Assembly (NCBI GenBank): GCA_951406725.2 | Contig: OX597837.1 | Location: 41,478,001 to 41,542,000, forward strand | Source of the DNA: Octopus vulgaris | Taxonomy: Eukaryota | Reading direction: 5' to 3' | DNA: 64,000 nucleotides | In this document: piece after piece, positions 1,004 through 55,189 of the stretch | Position numbering within the stretch: position 1 is the first letter of the stretch | Layout of the letters: the number at the start of each line of letters is the position of its first letter | The notes under the pieces: generated by a model | Databases searched by the model: none | The model's input: the letters and a program-made list of their open reading frames with translations, nothing else | Told to the model about the DNA's origin: nothing | Made by a program: the position numbers and the translations under genes

Positions 1004-1089
<86 letters not shown>

Positions 1090-1090
1090 G

Positions 1091-1180
<90 letters not shown>

Positions 1181-1483
1181 TAATATATATATATCACGCA
1201 AAGCAAACTGAATAAAATTTGATATTTTGCGGAGGGTCAAAATTGGTAATACAAACAGGACGGTGAAAACAAACAGGAAGGGCTGCTAAGCTTAAACAAG
1301 GTTGTGGTGGCGACCGCGTAAATCAAGCTTGGACAGGAGACAAACATGAACACGTCTTCCTTGTTCTAGCGACAACGGAGAGGAAGCAAGAAAGATGGAC
1401 GATGGTCACGTGGGAACCACATGAGCAACGGAAGAATATGTTATTCCTTATTTGTTGTTTACTTATTTGTTTCCGTATATGTA

Positions 1484-1623
1484 CATTCGTTTGCCTTGCC
1501 CAGAAGCTTAACATTTTTAGCTTACGTCCCTGGCCCAGCCGGTTTCGAGTAGTATCGGAGATAAGTGGGCGAAACTACGTGGACATTCCGGACTCCGACT
1601 GAAGAGGCAATTGGCTGTGAATG
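1484..1623 (+). ncRNA. Non-circularly permuted hammerhead-like RNA in a (TA)n/(TG)n-flanked island (1195-1738)
   Basis: GTAGT-A (1549-1554) with GAA-ACTAC (1571-1578); TCGGAG (1555-1560) with CTCCGA (1593-1598) directly before CTGAAGA (1599-1605); GCCCA/TGGGC; TTGCC/GGCAA; CATTCG/TGAATG. Confidence 0.7.
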
Positions 1624-1739
1624 ATCCGTGTATTTTGTTTTGTCCTGTTTCCCGTTGTCGTGCTGTCGTCCTTTTTCCTGCATGTTGCGTTTTGACGGTT
1701 TCCATTTGTTTGGCTTTTTCTGTTCTACCTTTGATTTAT

Positions 1740-1804
1740 ATGTGTGAGTGTGTGTGTGTATGTGTGTGTTTGTGTGTATGTGTGTATGTGTATGTATATG
1801 TATG

Positions 1805-1836
<32 letters not shown>

Positions 1837-1848
1837 TGTATATATGTA

Positions 1849-1905
<57 letters not shown>

Positions 1906-1914
1906 GTATGTATG

Positions 1915-2002
<88 letters not shown>

Positions 2003-2006
2003 TGCA

Positions 2007-2059
<53 letters not shown>

Positions 2060-2088
2060 GTATATATATACACATATATATATATGTA

Positions 2089-2133
<45 letters not shown>
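1740..2133. repeat. Compound (TG)n/(TATG)n/(TA)n microsatellite
   Basis: Directly visible. Confidence 0.95.
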
Positions 2134-2135
<2 letters not shown>

Positions 2136-2467
2136 TTGATTTAGTCCTACCACTTCAACACTTCAAACACAACAATATCAAGAACAACAACAAGGACCGT
2201 GGTGCTAGGAACTACAGTAAAATCACTTTATTTCTCATTTTTTCATCAAGTCAATGCAGTTATTGTTGTTGTTGCTGTTGTTGTTGTTGAACTTCATGCT
2301 GTTAATGCTGCTTTAGTGATGACGACGACGAAGACGACGGAGACGAAGAGGTTGGCGAAGACATCGATGATGATGAGGATGATGATGCCGTCGGTTATGC
2401 TGTTCTCGACCATGATATGTTTATTTGTATATCCAACTTCCCTTTGTTGCTGCTGTTGTTGTTGTTG

Positions 2468-2945
2468 CTCTTCTTCTTCTTCCTCTTCTTCGTCTTCTTC
2501 TTCCTTTTCTTCTTCTTCTTCTTCTTCTTCTTCTTCTTCTTCTTCTTCGTCTTCCTCTTCTTCTTGTTCGTCTTCTTCTTCCTCTTCCTCTTCTTCTTCT
2601 TCGTTTTCTTCTTCTTCGTCTTCTTCCTTTTCTTCTTCTTCTTCTTCTTCTTCTTCTTCTTTTTTTTCCTCTTCTTCTTCGTCTTCTTCTTCTTCCTTTT
2701 CTTCTTCGTCTTCTTCTTCTTCTTCTTCTTCGTCTTCTTCTTCTTCTTCTTCTTCTTCTTCTTCTTCTTCTTCTTCTTCTTCTCCTTCTTCTTCTTCTCC
2801 TTCTCCTTCTTCTTCTTCTTCTTCTTCTTCTTCTTCTTCTTCTTCTTCTTCTTCTTCTTCTTCTTCTTCTTCTTCTTCTCCTTCTTCTTCTCCTTCTTCT
2901 TCTTCTTCTTCTTCTTCTTCTTCTTCTTCTTCTTCTTCTTCTTCT
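2468..2945. repeat. (TCT)n trinucleotide array
   Basis: About 480 bp of TCT/TCG/TCC units; source of the poly-S/F/L/E ORFs. Confidence 0.95.
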
Positions 2946-3251
2946 ATTACTACTACTACTACTACAGCTTCTTCATCCTCCACCACAACCACGACAACGC
3001 CAAAACCAGAAGATGCAACTGTTTTGTTTTTTTATTAATGTTTGTTTGGCGTATCATTATTATTGTTGATATTGTTGTTGTTGTTGTTGTTAGTAGTAGT
3101 AGTATTAGTAGTAGTAGTAGTATCATTATTGGTGTTGTTTTGTTATTAGTTTTTTATTCACACGATATTTCCATTTGTTTGTTTCTGCCCTTGATTACTT
3201 CTCTGACAGCCCTGTCCTCCTCTCTCCCCTTCTCTCTCTCTATCCCTCTGT

Positions 3252-3284
<33 letters not shown>

Positions 3285-3387
3285 GCACATCTCTCGCATC
3301 TCTTTATATATTTTTTCTGCCAATCTTTTCTTTGATTAATCATTTTTACCTTTTCATCTTCTTCGCCAGCACCAACACCATCGCCGC

Positions 3388-3389
3388 CG

Positions 3390-3443
<54 letters not shown>

Positions 3444-3799
3444 CCATCATCACCATCATCATCACCATCATCATCATCATCATCATGATTGATATTCTCA
3501 CCATCGTCCTTATTTTTCTTATTCTTCTTCTCCTCCTACTCCTACTCCTTTTCCTTTTCGCCATGACCATCACCGTCTCAATAACAACACCCTTGAAAAA
3601 CAACCAAAAATACAAATGTCACCTACGAGCGCAATCAGCGCTACTTATAACGCCGTCGTCGTCATCATCATCATTATCGTCAATATCACCAACATCATCA
3701 TCATCATCATCATCATCATTACTATCATCATCATCATCATCATCATTATCATCATTATCATCGTCATCATCATCGTCATCATCGTCATCATCACCGTCG

Positions 3800-3854
<55 letters not shown>

Positions 3855-5174
3855 TACTATCATCATCATCATCATCATTATCATCGCCAATATCACTATT
3901 ATCATCATCATCATCGTCGTCATCATCGTCTTGTTGTTGTCATCTTCATCGTCATCCTTGTCACCACACACACACACACGCATACACACACACATATATA
4001 TATATACATATACGTATATATAACCGATACCCCCCATCCCCCAACCACCCTCCTCTTCCTCTCCCACCACCCACCACCCCCAACACACCTTTACCAAACA
4101 CCAAAGCAAACACTGTGTGTCGCTTATATCGTGTTTATTTGTTCATGTCTTTTGTCTATTGTCCACACAACCGCCATTATTCTAATTCCACTATTTTCTT
4201 CAATCCGAATCCAAAGATCTTAACACCACCAACCCCCACTCTCCGCCACCCCTGCTCCCCGTTCCCTTCTCTTGCCACGGAACCCCGGCTCTTCCCTCCT
4301 CTTCCGTCCTCATTACCGATTTCCTACTGATTAGTTTGTCGTACCCTAGGGACTTATGAGTTTTACCCTTCTAACGGACCCTTAGAAAAGAAGTTCTTTC
4401 TGATTGCCTTTTTCTATCTCCTTCCTTCTTCTTCTTCTTCTTCCTAATCTCGCGTGACCCCAACCCCACTCCCACGCCCCCAACAGCCCCACCTCACCCC
4501 GACATCACTCTGCTACGAAAATCCGCCCACCTCTCACGAGATCTCGCTAAGACCACTATGGCCGCCAACGTCACCGTCACCATCAACATCGCCTTCACCA
4601 CCACGGACACCATCATAGCAAACCATCAAGCCCCGTCCACCTCCTCCTCATCATCATCATCCGCATCATCAGCATCATCATTATCATCATCATCATCATC
4701 GTTACGATCATCATCATAGCCACCAACATAACCATTACTTCCTTCGAACCAGCATCGCCAGTATCGAAACCACCACCACCAATACCACCAAAGCAAACTA
4801 TCGGCCTCCGTCATCATTATCCTCCTCATCATCATCATAATCATCATCCTCATTACCATCATCGTCATCGCCACCATCACCCCGCCCATTCGCACCTTCG
4901 TGCGTTCATCACCAGCATCAACAGCACCACTACCAACAACAACAACAACAACTTAAAAACAAAACAATGGCCTCTACCAACACCTACCCCACGCCATCAC
5001 CAACACATGACCATTACCATCTCCGCGCCGCCATCATCACCGACATCAATAACAACAATAATCCTCCGCGCCTCCCATCATCAAACGCTACTCCGCTTCC
5101 ACCACCACCACCACCAATATTTCATCATAACCATCATAATCATCATCATCATCATCATCATTGTCATCACCAAT

Positions 5175-5211
<37 letters not shown>

Positions 5212-5216
5212 CCAAC

Positions 5217-5247
<31 letters not shown>

Positions 5248-5344
5248 CACCATCTTCTTCATTATCATCATCATCATCATCATTATTATCATTATCATCA
5301 TCATCATTATCATCATCATTATCATCACCATCATCATCATCATT

Positions 5345-5379
<35 letters not shown>

Positions 5380-5380
5380 T
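3388..5380. repeat. (CAT)n/(CAC)n low-complexity region
   Basis: CAT/CGT/CAC arrays at 3388-3490, 3650-3955 and 4620-5380. Confidence 0.9.
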
Positions 5381-6036
5381 CCCATCAGAAGCTTCACCAG
5401 CCCATTACCACCGTCACCACCACAGCTACCAGGCTACTACTACTACTACTACTACCATTACCCCTCATTAGCATAACCACCGCAGTGAAAGCCACTACTA
5501 CCGCAACAACCATCAAAAACAAACAATCAAGGCCACCACCGTCTCTACTAACACCACCACCAACACCGACACTAACACCACCACCAGCGCCATCATGTAC
5601 CCTGCCCCACCCACACGCCACTCATAACTATCGTGCTCACCACAAAAAAATAAACACCATAATTCGTGCTAACGGGATACCTTCTATCAACATGGTCACT
5701 GGATCTGCTAGAAATAACAACCAAATATTACTGAAACCTAATTCTAACGTCTTAAAACAAGAATATTGTGTTTGAAAATCGAAAATTAGGAAAAAAGGTG
5801 GGATGGTCACGGCTGGAATATCTTTGTATCCCATTTTATTTATAAACATATATTTTTGCGGGTTTGTCATCCTATCAGTAAATTGGTTATCGGATTATTG
5901 AATCATTGGATTAATTCCACAGAAGTTAGACTTAAATACTAATTCTTTAAATGATTGCCACTTAATTTCATCTCAGTTGCCGCCTCCTCCGGTCTCTGCC
6001 ACAAGATATACATTTATACATACACACACACATACA

Positions 6037-6166
<130 letters not shown>

Positions 6167-6191
6167 ATCAAAACGGTTTGATTCAAATTCG

Positions 6192-6274
6192 TTGGTACTC
6201 AGAGTTTCAAGCGTTTTGCTAACCTTCAGCTATTGGCTGAAGATTAACATCACGATTGAAACTCTGAGTACAAT
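6192..6274. ncRNA. Head-to-head inverted pair of minimal type I hammerheads
   Basis: + copy TTGG-CTGAAGA(6237)-...-GAAA(6258)-CTCTGAG-TA-CAAT; - copy reads CTGAAGG...GAAA-CTCTGAG-TA-CCAA; arms GTACTCAGAGTTTCAA/TTGAAACTCTGAGTAC. Confidence 0.65.
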
Positions 6275-10982: not shown

Positions 10983-11113
10983 CCTAAGGAATAAGAACCC
11001 AAGTTCGAAATTTCCCCCAAGACACCTGATGAAGGCTGGAGGCTATATCAGCCGAAACGTTATGTTAACAACAAACAAGATGAGGACAAATATCCGTCAA
11101 ATGTAAATAATGT
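10983..11113 (+). mobile_element. 5'-truncated hammerhead-tailed element (HHR 11021-11066)
   Basis: GACAC-CTGATGA-A-GGCTG..CAGCC-GAAA-CG-TT-ATGTT; same sequence as 16987-17120. Confidence 0.75.
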
Positions 11114-15410: not shown

Positions 15411-15814
15411 AAATATTTTTTATAAAATTATTTCAGCATTTTCTACCTTGACTTTTTATCCATATATACATAAGTAGAGTAGATGAAACCATAGCGACTG
15501 AAGAAGGGGTTTTTTCTTTGTGTTAATTGTCCTGTACTCTATTTTTTTGGTGTTTATAAAAAAATGTCCAGTTCCTTTGGTTTGTGTCTATGTTTTCGTT
15601 TCTCATTGTGTTCGACGTCCTTTTGGTGTCCTGTACTCATATATGTGTGTATATGTACATGTAGAGGTAGGTACGTACATATATGTTTATATATATATGC
15701 ATATGTTTTATTTTATTTATTAATATATATATATATATATATATGTAGTTCCCGGGTTGATTCGGGGTTAACCACAGTAAGTAAGGTACTCAATACATAG
15801 CAGAGTAAAATTAA

Positions 15815-15943
15815 TTTATTATATAGAAGGAGCTTCTACAGGACTAGTACTGTTTCATTCAAGAGGAATCTTCAGGAGCTCCCTGAAGATTTCTCTTGAA
15901 TGAAACAGTACTAGTCCTGTAGAAGCTCCTTCTATATAATAAA
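15815..15943. repeat. 62 bp-arm palindrome carrying a type I hammerhead (15875-15929, + strand)
   Basis: Arms 15815-15876 and 15882-15943 with 1 mismatch; GGAGCTCC-CTGAAGA-TTTC TCTT GAAT-GAAA-CAG TACTAGTC CTG-TA-GAAGCTCC. Confidence 0.85.
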
Positions 15944-16020
15944 ATATATATATATATATATATATACGTTTAAATATTTGTTGTGCAAGATTTTTTATGT
16001 GAAGTCGTGTGTTGAAACAG

Positions 16021-16979: not shown

Positions 16980-17120
16980 TCGAAAATACCTTAGGAATGA
17001 GAACCCAGGTTCGAAATTTCCCCAAAACACCTGATGAAGGCTGGAGGGTATATCAACCGAAATGTTGTGTTAACAAACAAGATGAGGATAAATATCGTCA
17101 AATGTAAATAATGTAAATAA
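16813..17120 (+). mobile_element. tRNA-headed, (AAT)n-containing element with 3' hammerhead (17026-17071)
   Basis: TGCATAGTGGTTAAG A box, ATTCGATTCC B-box-like, (AAT)n, second GGTTCGAAAT motif, AACAC-CTGATGA-AGGCTG..CAACC-GAAA-TG-TT-GTGTT. Confidence 0.7.
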
Positions 17121-25583: not shown

Positions 25584-25654
25584 TGCATCGGCTGGGAATC
25601 GAACCCGAGCCGCCCGCGTGGCAGGCGAGCATTCTACCACTGAACCACCGATGC
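25584..25654 (-). tRNA. trnG-GCC: tRNA-Gly(GCC), probably a retrocopy or pseudogene
   Basis: GCATCGG TG GTTC AGTGGTA GAAT G CTCGC CTGCCAC GCGGG CGGC TCGGG TTCGATT CCCAG CCGATGC A; full cloverleaf, but the T stem has a U-G wobble and a C-A mismatch. Confidence 0.9.
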
Positions 25655-38645: not shown

Positions 38646-38740
38646 GTTGTTGTTGTTGTTGTTGTTGCTGTTATTTTTATTGTATTTTTGTGTTTATATT
38701 CGTGTAACATCGTCTGTTTTTCCGTCCTTGTTTTCGTATA

Positions 38741-38883
38741 CATTCGATGCTTTTTTCCGAGGAATCTAATGCTCTTGGCTTAGTTTGTCCTTGGTGCTGG
38801 CCAGATTGGAGCAATCTCAAGATTAATTAGCCGAAATTGCGTGGATGATCCGGTTCTTGACTGAAGATAAAAGGTTTCGAATG
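38741..38883 (+). ncRNA. Non-circularly permuted hammerhead-like RNA
   Basis: GCAAT-C (38811-38816) with GAA-ATTGC (38833-38840); TCAAGA with TCTTGA directly before CTGAAGA (38861-38867); CATTCGA/TCGAATG closing helix. Confidence 0.7.
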
Positions 38884-38999
38884 ACCCGTCCTTGTTTTTT
38901 TTTTGTATCGTCTATCTGGGTGTTTTGTTGTCCCTTTTTGTATCACCTAGTTGTCCGGATGTTTTGCGTTCTTGTCCCATTTTGTATTATATTTTATAT

Positions 39000-46039: not shown

Positions 46040-46240
46040 GCGGTGAGCTGGTAGAACCGTTAGCTCGCGGGCGAAATGCGTAGCCGTATTTCATCTGCCG
46101 TTACGTTCTGAGTTCAAATTCCGCCGAGGTCGACTATGCCTTTCATCTTTTCGGGGTCGATAAATTAAGTACCAGTTATGCACTGGGGTCGATGTAATCG
46201 ACTTAATTCGTTTGTCTGTCCTTGTTTGTCCCCTCAATGT
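46040..46240 (+). mobile_element. SINE family B
   Basis: Head, B box and Meta-like core; abuts a truncated SINE A head. Confidence 0.85.
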
Positions 46241-46266
46241 AAGAAAGATCTATATATATATGTATA

Positions 46267-46410
46267 CATTCGAGGCTTTCTTCCAAGGAATCTAATGCGC
46301 TTGGCTTAGATTTTCCTTTGGGGCTGGCCAGATCGGAGCAATCTCAAGATTAATCAGCCGAAATTGCGAGGATGATCCGATTCTTGACTGAAGATTGAAG
46401 GCTTCGAATG
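46267..46410 (+). ncRNA. Non-circularly permuted hammerhead-like RNA
   Basis: GCAAT-C (46338-46343) with GAA-ATTGC (46360-46367); TCAAGA/TCTTGA; CTGAAGA 46388-46394; GGCTGG/TCAGCC; CATTCGAGGCTTTC/GAAGGCTTCGAATG. Confidence 0.75.
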
Positions 46411-46486
46411 CCCCATCCGTGTTTTTTTTTTGTATCGTCTATCTAAATGTTTTACGTTCTTGTCCCAGTTTGTAATTTTTTACATT

Positions 46487-46536
<50 letters not shown>

Positions 46537-46594
46537 TATATACATACATATATATATATAAGAGGCTTGCTTCCCAACCACATGTGCTTACTCC

Positions 46595-54919: not shown

Positions 54920-55189
54920 ATATATTTATCAAAAGAAAAACAGGATGCAAAGGGTTTTGCGGTACATATGTTTCTGGCTTTATTGAACAATTTATATCAA
55001 TGCATAATTGATATAATATGTAGGTCAACAGCCTTCTTCAGTCGCTGTTGTGTCTTTGGTGTGGTAATTGTACGCGGCTGAAGAAGGCAGTTGACCTACA
55101 TGTTATATCAATTATGCATTGATATAAATTGTTCAATAAAGCCAGAAACATATGTACCGCAAAATCCTTTGCATCCTGTTTTTCTTTTG

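What the first reader, a model, noticed from the sequence alone, without database searches (positions are those of the whole stretch)
46267..46410. Second sequence family of the permuted hammerhead (best-paired copy)
Seen: CATTCGAGGCTTTC/GAAGGCTTCGAATG; hairpin CCAAGGAA-TCTAA..TTAGA-TTTTCCTTTGG; GGCTGG/TCAGCC; GCAAT-C/GAA-ATTGC; TCAAGA/TCTTGA-CTGAAGA. Every helix differs in sequence from the 1484 copy while the order and core are kept. The predicted cleavage triplet is AUC (after C46343). The island is flanked by (TA)n.
Basis: partly seen in the sequence, partly recalled or inferred. Interest (0 to 1): 0.8.

Follow-up and report, generated by a model that had tools for sequence, protein, structure and literature searches.

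The report
Core-split permuted hammerhead in retroelement tail
A repeat that is very common in this animal genome ends in an RNA with all the catalytic parts of a self-cutting hammerhead ribozyme, but wired in a rearranged order and with its core opened by two extra helices; the same layout sits in the tails of Naiad jumping genes from several animal phyla, which were reported to lack this ribozyme, though cutting is untested.

Summary
[quoted passage not shown] Against the copy at 1484, 9 of 16 core pairs change on both sides and all 9 stay Watson-Crick.

New points. (1) The 5' strand of stem II lies upstream, so the A9-G10.1 link, which Eckert assumed cannot be interrupted, is opened by an outer helix plus a hairpin. 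(2) A fourth helix joins the two linkers; this copy has a private change in it (46380, family G about 99%). (3) A third copy lies at 38741. (4) The family is high-copy, with variation depleted in the core. (5) Read by eye, 9 of 42 viewed Naiad retroelement consensus 3' ends (five phyla) show this split form and 10 show intact CSG or SGC forms; Naiads were reported to lack canonical hammerheads.

Cleavage is untested, and no reverse transcriptase is linked to this family. Verdict: a new hammerhead variant, probably the missing Naiad ribozyme.

The parts
46262..46489 (+). 5'-truncated 3' end of a high-copy dispersed repeat (copy A, family A), inferred Penelope-like/Naiad tail
   Evidence: homology to copy C starts at 46262 and runs to the TA repeat; 1025-6229 contigs laid per run
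46267..46410 (+). core-split, mirror-order (S-G-C) hammerhead-like RNA
46267..46280 (+). P0 outer helix, 5' strand
   Evidence: 14 bp with 46397-46410
46283..46321 (+). P4 hairpin, ends directly before G10.1
   Evidence: present in all 3 window copies
46322..46327 (+). stem II 5' strand (G10.1 = 46322), displaced from CUGANGA
   Evidence: 5 WC + 1 GU with 46354-46359; 3 of 5 pairs double-changed in copy B
46327..46334 (+). linker helix (stem I/II interaction), 5' strand
   Evidence: pairs with 46374-46381; 7 of 8 paired in copy C, 6 of 8 in copy A, 5 of 8 in copy B; family variants 46330G and 46378T each repair its A-C mismatch
46338..46343 (+). stem III 5'-side strand with U16.1 (46342) and C17 (46343); predicted cleavage 46343/46344
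   Evidence: site inferred by analogy to hammerheads
46344..46349 (+). stem I strand 3' of the cleavage site
   Evidence: 6 WC with 46382-46387; 4 of 6 pairs double-changed in copy B
46354..46367 (+). block G: stem II 3' strand (C11.1 = 46359), GAAA 46360-46363, stem III strand to 46367
46374..46381 (+). linker helix 3' strand; A46380 is private to this copy
   Evidence: G in 98.7-99.9% of laid depth in 4 of 4 runs
46382..46394 (+). stem I strand and CUGAAGA (C3 = 46388, A9 = 46394)
46397..46410 (+). P0 3' strand, 2 nt after A9
38741..38883 (+). copy C, same family (89% identical); G10.1 changed to T, so probably decayed; element spans about 38670-38990
1484..1623 (+). copy B, second family; same spacing, triplet GUA; P0 starts directly after A9 and P4 directly follows P0
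46251..46261 (.). (TA)n run 5' of copy A
46490..46560 (.). (TA)n-rich run 3' of copy A

Best explanation
The stretch is the 3' tail (pseudo-LTR) of a high-copy Penelope-like retroelement, most likely of the Naiad clade, and encodes a self-cleaving hammerhead ribozyme of a new topology. Shown in sequence: the linker helix and stem III form a long stem-loop whose apical loop holds the cleavage site, one strand of stem I, one strand of stem II and GAAA. That loop pairs back with both strands at the base (stems II and I), giving the S-G-C order. Unlike published type SGC, the chain opens inside the core, between A9 and G10.1. Inferred: P0 and P4 stack end to end, and at the nick between them A9 and G10.1 emerge side by side, so the two helices splint the missing backbone link and the normal hammerhead active site forms. 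G12 and G8 would act as general base and acid (established hammerhead chemistry, recalled), cutting after C46343 to leave a 2',3'-cyclic phosphate and a 5'-OH. Inferred role: as proposed for other Penelope-like elements, it cuts tandem or read-through transcripts into unit-length RNA. Genomic copies span the cut site, so the template that is reverse-transcribed must be uncut or re-ligated (possibly circular).
For: Covariation A vs B: of 16 core pairs 7 identical, 9 changed on both sides, all 9 WC, none broken; rough p = (1/3)^9 = 5e-5. Rarity in shuffles and unrelated loci. Family variation avoids the core: with variants at 6% or more, 1 of 42 core/stem I-III places vs 9 of 31 other places vary (Fisher p 0.0014; 4 of 42 vs 11 of 31, p 0.008, with all listed variants). 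By eye, 9 of 42 viewed Naiad consensus 3' ends show the same order of P0, hairpin, II, linker helix, III, site, I, with unrelated helix sequences. Across these, N7 is A, U or G and H17 is A, C or U but never G, the pattern expected of catalytic selection. 7 further Naiads carry intact type CSG and 3 carry SGC with a long insert, in the same position; natural SGC and CSG RNAs cleave in vitro (PMC10085705). One extra nucleotide at the A9/G10.1 step is tolerated in the CChMVd hammerhead, with a moderate rate loss (PMC1636495 passage). AUC was the fastest triplet post-transcriptionally in that paper. (TA)n targeting and 5' truncation match Naiad traits (PMC8557442).
Against: No cleavage, probing or RNA-end data: all runs are contigs, 'RNA' is a guess, and no pile-up of ends was seen. 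No published hammerhead that I found has more than 1-2 nt between CUGAnGA and stem II. Nested folding gives pair probability near 0 for stems I and III in all three copies and offers competing hairpins (the program cannot fold pseudoknots, so this neither shows nor excludes the fold). Copy A has a private change that breaks one linker-helix pair, and copy C has lost G10.1-C11.1. No Naiad RT or endonuclease motif was found in the window, and short motifs of families A and B do not occur in the Craig supplement, so Naiad membership of these families rests on architecture, linker similarity and insertion site. The Naiad survey was by eye, on the last 600 nt or so, with record names inferred from file order; 21 of 42 showed no hammerhead core and 2 stayed unresolved. 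AUC was the least efficient triplet co-transcriptionally in ELVd.
Confidence: 0.75

Rival explanations
1. A hammerhead-derived fold that no longer cleaves, or barely does, and is kept as a structural signal, for example for RT recognition of the 3' end.
For: The core is interrupted in a way never shown to be active. Genomic copies span the cut site. Minimal hammerheads of Penelope-like elements cleave poorly in vitro (PMC4209133 passage).
Against: The catalytic nucleotides and the no-G rule at H17 hold across the split-form Naiads and within family A, and sister Naiads hold intact CSG/SGC forms at the same place.
Confidence: 0.13
2. An ordinary type-SGC hammerhead with an intact block C: stem II forms with the strand downstream of CUGAAGA (4 bp after a 5-nt insert in copy A), and P0/P4 are an off-state or bystanders.
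For: In copy A, 46400-46403 can pair with 46356-46359 (-5.0 kcal/mol).
Against: The upstream register is stronger (-8.3) and covaries. In copy B the downstream register gives only -2.4. In the Naiad homologs the strand after CUGANGA pairs upstream as P0.
Confidence: 0.04
3. The ribozyme is active, but the carrier is not a Naiad: it is a non-autonomous tail-only element or another Penelope-like clade that acquired the motif.
For: No ORF is linked in the window. Cephalopod Naiads were described as old remnants, whereas family A is high-copy. Hydra-clade elements also target (TA)n.
Against: All split-form homologs seen were Naiads, and the Hydra elements listed in File S2 carry canonical hammerheads. 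Both linkers resemble those of Naiad_Obim and Naiad_Ovul by eye. Chlamys and Hydra consensus tails were not surveyed for the split form.
Confidence: 0.25
4. Splicing or back-splicing rejoins A9 to G10.1 and restores an intact core.
For: Penelope-like pseudo-LTRs can hold introns.
Against: No GT after 46394 and no AG before 46322. No such joint is listed in 4 of 4 laid runs (contigs show presence, not absence). P0 covaries across phyla.
Confidence: 0.02
5. Chance arrangement in repetitive DNA.
For: The looser descriptor gave 3 split-form hits in 60 shuffles and 1 in the unrelated loci.
Against: Identical spacing in three copies, 9 of 9 compensatory pairs, and homologs in published Naiads.
Confidence: 0.01

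Closest known systems
Type-SGC non-circularly permuted hammerhead (HRIMA-1 and variants; Eckert, Friedrich, Weinberg, Weinberg 2023, PMC10085705; parts 1-6 of 8 read, supplements not read)
   Same: Order S-G-C, all core nucleotides, three crossing stems, a short link from stem I to stem II (4 nt here, typically 3), and a helix joining the other sides of stems I and II.
   Different: Block C is interrupted: the stem II 5' strand lies upstream and P0 plus P4 sit between A9 and G10.1, so the linker helix is joined covalently to stem III at both ends. It lies in animal genomic DNA at high copy number; Eckert found such RNAs in metatranscriptomes and metagenomes and, apart from one weak GCS candidate, none in genomes of known organisms. 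Cleavage is untested here.
Naiad clade of Penelope-like elements, 'HHR_core / HHR_half_core' annotations (Craig et al. 2021, PMC8557442; passages, section 6, supplement parts 1-2 and 600-nt passages of File S5 read)
   Same: (TA)n insertion, 5' truncation, position near the 3' end, and the same architecture by eye in 9 of 42 viewed consensus ends, among them Naiad_Obim, Naiad_Ovul and Naiad_Esco.
   Different: The paper reports no canonical hammerhead and gives no structure for the half cores. Families A and B are not among its consensus sequences by motif search, and their ORF was not seen.
Minimal type I hammerheads in pseudo-LTRs of canonical Penelope-like elements (Cervera and de la Pena 2014, PMC4209133; passages read)
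   Same: Same place in the element and probably the same role; an example lies in this window at 11026.
   Different: Those have the C-G-S order, little or no stem III and need dimers. This one has a 5-bp stem III, 6-bp stem I and a linker helix, so it should work as a monomer (inferred).
Hammerheads with core insertions (CChMVd A10, PMC1636495 passage; U13a, A6a and saltern 2a/2b variants, Perreault 2011, PMC3088659 passages)
   Same: The A9/G10.1 step tolerates an extra nucleotide.
   Different: The insertions in the passages read are 1-2 nt; here two helices and the molecule's own 5' and 3' ends occupy that step.

Membership tests
Hammerhead ribozyme | CUGANGA and GAAA core words | tested here: met
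   46388-94 and 46360-63 in A, same in B and C; conserved in family A except minor CpG-type change at G12, 1-5%
Hammerhead ribozyme | NUH triplet between stems III and I, with A15.1-U16.1 pair | tested here: met
   AUC in A and C, GUA in B
Hammerhead ribozyme | Stems I, II and III supported by covariation, G10.1-C11.1 closing pair | tested here: met
   9 of 9 double changes WC; G10.1-C11.1 present in A and B, lost in C
Hammerhead ribozyme | Site-specific self-cleavage | not testable with these tools
   only contigs available; no RNA ends
Canonical type I/II/III hammerhead (Rfam models) | C-G-S circular order, nested three-way junction | tested here: not met
   order is S-G-C; no Rfam hammerhead match at gathering score or at E up to 10
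Type-SGC hammerhead (Eckert 2023) | Block order S, G, C | tested here: met
Type-SGC hammerhead (Eckert 2023) | Helix joining the distal sides of stems I and II | tested here: met
   7 of 8 pairs in C, 6 of 8 in A (private change), 5 of 8 in B; repair variants in the family; 5-16 bp in Naiad homologs by eye. Weakest of the helices.
Type-SGC hammerhead (Eckert 2023) | Uninterrupted block C (stem II directly after CUGAnGA, at most 1-2 nt inserted) | tested here: not met
   0-2 bp possible directly after A9 in the three copies; stem II partner lies upstream. It is therefore filed as a variant that works like SGC, not as a member.
Naiad Penelope-like element | N-terminal GIY-YIG, CxC and DKA motifs, RT ORF | tested here: inconclusive
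   no such ORF motif in context in six frames of the window; copies are 5'-truncated tails and no genome is held
Naiad Penelope-like element | (TA)n insertion bias and 5' truncation | tested here: met
   not unique to Naiads
Naiad Penelope-like element | Partial tandem (pseudo-LTR) or inverted arrangement | tested here: inconclusive
   solo tails only; 1195-1440 upstream of copy B has no match elsewhere in the window
Naiad Penelope-like element | Sequence match to a published Naiad consensus | tested here: inconclusive
   three short motifs absent from the supplement; linker similarity to Naiad_Obim/Ovul by eye only; no alignment could be run

The most novel reading that the evidence does not exclude
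Naiad retroelements across animals use the mirror-order hammerhead as their ribozyme, in at least three openings of one ring: CSG in nematodes and a spider, SGC with long inserts in a crab, an ostracod and a horseshoe crab, and a further, undescribed opening inside the catalytic core (A9/G10.1, splinted by two stacked helices) in a ctenophore, cnidarians, an acanthocephalan and cephalopods. The non-circular permutation would then be no rarity of environmental RNAs but an abundant ribozyme form in invertebrate genomes, and the hammerhead core could be assembled without the A9-G10.1 bond.
Probability: 0.65. Interest if true: 0.88.

Novelty: new variant of a known kind. Interest (0 to 1): 0.8.

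Why it matters
It breaks a stated rule of hammerhead architecture (block C cannot be interrupted, PMC10085705). It moves non-circular RNA permutations from environmental contigs into animal genomes at high copy number. It offers a direct, cheap test of an open point in retroelement biology: why Naiads seem to lack the hammerhead that other Penelope-like elements carry (PMC8557442). A series of circular permutations of one mirror-order ring within one retroelement clade would also be a natural record of how RNA permutations arise, since tandem pseudo-LTRs supply the duplication-and-trimming route. A core that opens at A9/G10.1 is a new place to attach ends or sensors in engineered ribozymes.

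Tried and rejected
Own-genome search: no genome held. Pattern scans of metagenome contigs (40 loci) and viral contigs (33 loci): 0 of 73 have the helices; used as a negative control. Rfam: no hammerhead match at gathering score over the window or at E up to 10 over 46150-46500; it also misses the canonical minimal hammerhead at 11026, so the blank says little. Sequence-only profile of the three copies: no fourth copy in the window. ORF list and RT/endonuclease motif search: no retroelement ORF in the window. A Pfam scan of frames beside copies B and C did not run and was not repeated, so those flanks were checked by motif search only. Sequencing runs: no RNA holder listed; one run guessed to be RNA holds the family (1025 contigs) but is not shown to be RNA; no pile-up of ends and no joint from 46394 to 46322. 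Minus strand: folds less well (z -1.79 vs -2.66) and has no core words here. Downstream register for stem II and splicing: rejected (see rivals). The identical stem II shared by copy A and the canonical hammerhead at 11026 was considered as a sign of descent; a near-identical stem occurs in a Chara element, so it may be convergent. Earlier scan notes by place and by sequence: nothing. Literature searches (PMC CC-licensed plus bioRxiv only): 'non-circular permutation'+'hammerhead', 'hammerhead ribozyme'+'octopus', 'Naiad'+'hammerhead'+'Penelope', 'permuted hammerhead'+'retrotransposon' (36, 0 papers), 'type-SGC'+'hammerhead' (40, 1 paper), 'non-circularly permuted'+'ribozyme', 'Penelope-like'+'hammerhead'+'permutation', 'hammerhead'+'between A9 and G10.1' (56, 0 papers), 'hammerhead'+'extra nucleotide'+'G10.1', 'Naiad'+'ribozyme'. 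In the listings and the passages read, none describes a permuted hammerhead in Naiads or a helix at A9/G10.1. A 2026 paper mentions 'HHR variants containing additional helices' citing three references: one is Eckert, passages of the second (PMC10162972) showed no such insert, and the third (its ref. 13) I could not identify. Subscription papers and bioRxiv supplements were not visible.

Full report
1. Observation. The stretch 46267-46410 reads, 5' to 3': P0 5' strand, hairpin P4, stem II 5' strand, linker, stem III strand with AUC, stem I strand, 4 nt, stem II 3' strand, GAAA, stem III strand, linker, stem I strand, CUGAAGA, 2 nt, P0 3' strand. Pair counts are P0 14 (12 WC, 2 GU), P4 13 WC, II 5 WC + 1 GU, III 5 WC, I 6 WC. 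The window holds three copies: this one (A), one at 38741-38883 (C, 89% identical) and one at 1484-1623 (B, a distinct family). A profile search finds no fourth. Spacing from site to GAAA to CUGANGA is identical in all three.

2. More than chance. Between A and B, 7 of the 16 pairs of stems I-III are identical and 9 are changed on both sides, all 9 remaining Watson-Crick; no pair is broken (rough p 5e-5, two sequences only). Identity is lower in the stems (14 of 32) than in core and linkers (28 of 41). A strict descriptor gives 2 sites in the window, 1 in 60 shuffles of the window and 0 in 262,685 nt of unrelated loci; a looser one gives 3 split-form hits in the 60 shuffles and 1 in those loci. 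Of 73 metagenome and viral matches to the core-word patterns none forms the helices.

3. The family. 22 of 24 listed runs hold the stretch or part of it; the 20 with half of its words or more come from four coded organisms; none is on record as RNA. Four runs were laid (three organisms): 6229, 5976, 2227 and 1025 contigs align, so the family is high-copy (depth is not a copy number). Variants of 3% or more cluster in the P4 loop and bulge, the linkers and the junction after A9. Within 46322-46394, 4 of 42 core or stem I-III places vary against 11 of 31 others (p 0.008); at 6% or more, 1 of 42 against 9 of 31 (p 0.0014) (position 46380 was left out of the count as a private change, and 4 rows of the table were not shown by the tool). 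The four core/stem variants are one G-U-compatible change (46340), two CpG-type changes at 46359 and 46360 (at most 5%) and one disruptive change at 46366 (3-5%). Position 46380 is G in about 99% of laid depth. With G, 46327-46334 pairs with 46374-46381 in 7 of 8 places, and two further family variants (46330G, 46378T) each repair the one mismatch; one variant (46331T, up to 22% in one run) breaks a pair. Copy A can form an alternative 6-bp WC helix between the same linkers (46332-37/46376-81), so it may still fold, but it is not the family type.

4. Topology. Eckert et al. (PMC10085705, parts 1-6 of 8 read) divide the hammerhead into blocks C, G and S, report natural SGC and CSG orders that cleave at 0.004-0.19 per min, describe a helix joining stems I and II, and assume block C cannot be interrupted. 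The window RNA has the S-G-C order and that helix, but at most 0-2 bp can form directly after A9 and the stem II partner lies upstream. The alternative downstream register is weaker in A (-5.0 vs -8.3 kcal/mol) and poor in B (-2.4 vs -8.3). In B, P0 begins directly after A9 and P4 follows P0 and precedes G10.1 with no spare nucleotide. I infer that P0 and P4 stack and present A9 and G10.1 side by side at their nick. One extra A at this step is tolerated in the CChMVd hammerhead (PMC1636495 passage); nothing larger appeared in the passages of Perreault 2011 that I read. Nested folding forms P0 and P4 in all three copies and stem II in A and B, but gives probability near 0 to stems I and III, with competing hairpins; the program cannot represent crossing helices, so this flags a misfolding risk only.

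5. Context. Copy A runs from 46262 to 46489 between TA repeats; C is longer at the 5' end and internally. No retroelement ORF is present in the window. Craig et al. (PMC8557442; passages, section 6 and parts of the supplement read) describe Naiad Penelope-like elements as (TA)n-targeting, 5'-truncated and lacking canonical hammerheads, while marking 8 as 'HHR_half_core'. I viewed about the last 600 nt of 42 of the 54 Naiad consensus records, by eye, naming each record from the file order. Core-split S-G-C with P0, hairpin and linker helix: 9 (Amil, Aacu, Movir-2, Chem-3, Bfor, Plae, Obim, Ovul, Esco; Amil/Aacu and Obim/Ovul are near-identical pairs, so 7 lineages in ctenophores, cnidarians, an acanthocephalan and cephalopods, which with the arthropod and nematode forms below makes the wider set; stem I is only 2 bp in Bfor and stem II has a mismatch in Esco and Aacu). 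Intact CSG: 7 (Parc, Nbra-1, -2, -3, Hcon, Hpol, Smim). SGC with a long insert: 3 (Ppla clear; Dst-1 and Lpol with irregular stem II). Unresolved: 2 (Dst-2, Dst-3). No hammerhead core seen: 21 (Mmer, Omin, Adux, Chem-1, -2, -4, CGi, Tgra, Mcor, Mphi, Scon, Tama, Movir-1, Ppac, Asuum, Sdum, EuTe, Skow-1, Pfla-1, -2, Ebur), several of them incomplete records. The split form thus spans four phyla as the paper lists them (Ctenophora, Cnidaria, Rotifera/Acanthocephala, Mollusca); the 'five phyla' in my summary should be read as four for the split form and six for all mirror-order forms together (adding Nematoda and Arthropoda). In the split group N7 is U or G (A in the window) and H17 is A, C or U. 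Short motifs of families A and B are absent from that supplement, so these families are not the published consensus elements; both linkers resemble those of Naiad_Obim and Naiad_Ovul by eye.

6. Mechanism. Shown: the helices, the core words, covariation, family-level conservation, high copy number, (TA)n context. Inferred: the hammerhead active site, cleavage after C46343, the P0/P4 splint, Naiad membership, and a role in cutting tandem or read-through transcripts to unit length, as proposed for other Penelope-like elements (PMC4209133 and PMC8557442 passages). Because copies span the cut site, the template must be uncut or re-ligated. Confidence that the family encodes an active ribozyme in a Penelope-like tail is 0.75; that this particular copy is active, about 0.55.

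7. Novelty. Ten literature searches (listed under Tried and rejected) gave no report of permuted hammerheads in Naiads or of a helix at A9/G10.1; a 2026 preprint on retrozymes mentions Naiads only for distribution (passages). One reference on hammerheads 'with additional helices' could not be identified, and subscription papers were not searchable. Earlier notes of this scan in other genomes mention rearranged hammerheads in Penelope-like elements and twister-like RNAs in clam-type Naiads; these are unchecked leads, not support. I file this as a new variant of a known kind: it works like a type-SGC hammerhead but fails that type's intact-block-C feature. Interest 0.8.

Noticed in passing
window 11021-11066 (+) and 17026-17071 (+): Two copies of a canonical minimal type I hammerhead (extra A after A9, 6-bp stem II, tiny stem III) in a short repeat beside TA/TAA microsatellites, the usual Penelope-like tail. 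The stem II strands at 11026 are identical to those of copy A; the 17031 copy has changes in stems II and III. Rfam misses the 11026 copy.
   Followed up: partly
window about 15795-15960 and 54970-55140: Two long, near-perfect inverted repeats (hairpin- or MITE-like), each with CUGAAGA on both arms but no GAAA partner.
   Followed up: no
window 25584-25654 (-): tRNA match, 57.3 bits, anticodon GCC (Gly) by eye.
   Followed up: no
window 1195-1440: Purine-rich stretch upstream of copy B whose minus strand looks like a pyrimidine-rich Penelope-like tail; possibly an inverted neighbour. No second copy in the window.
   Followed up: partly
window 38721-38735 and 38886-38900: A short direct repeat flanks the ribozyme of copy C on both sides; the upstream copy also appears in loose ends of family A contigs.
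   Followed up: no
PMC8557442 File S5, 5' regions of Naiad_Obim, Naiad_Ovul, Naiad_Omin: A second CUGAAGA, followed directly by a strand that pairs about 50 nt upstream as P0 does; I could not place blocks S and G. Possibly another rearranged ribozyme.
   Followed up: no
PMC8557442 File S5, 3' ends of CGi, Tgra, Skow-1, Pfla-1, Pfla-2, Chem-1, Chem-2: These Naiads lack a hammerhead core but share another conserved motif just after the ORF; Mmer, Scon, Mphi and Chem-4, Movir-1 share yet other motifs. Earlier scan notes suggest twister-like RNAs in clam-type Naiads.
   Followed up: no
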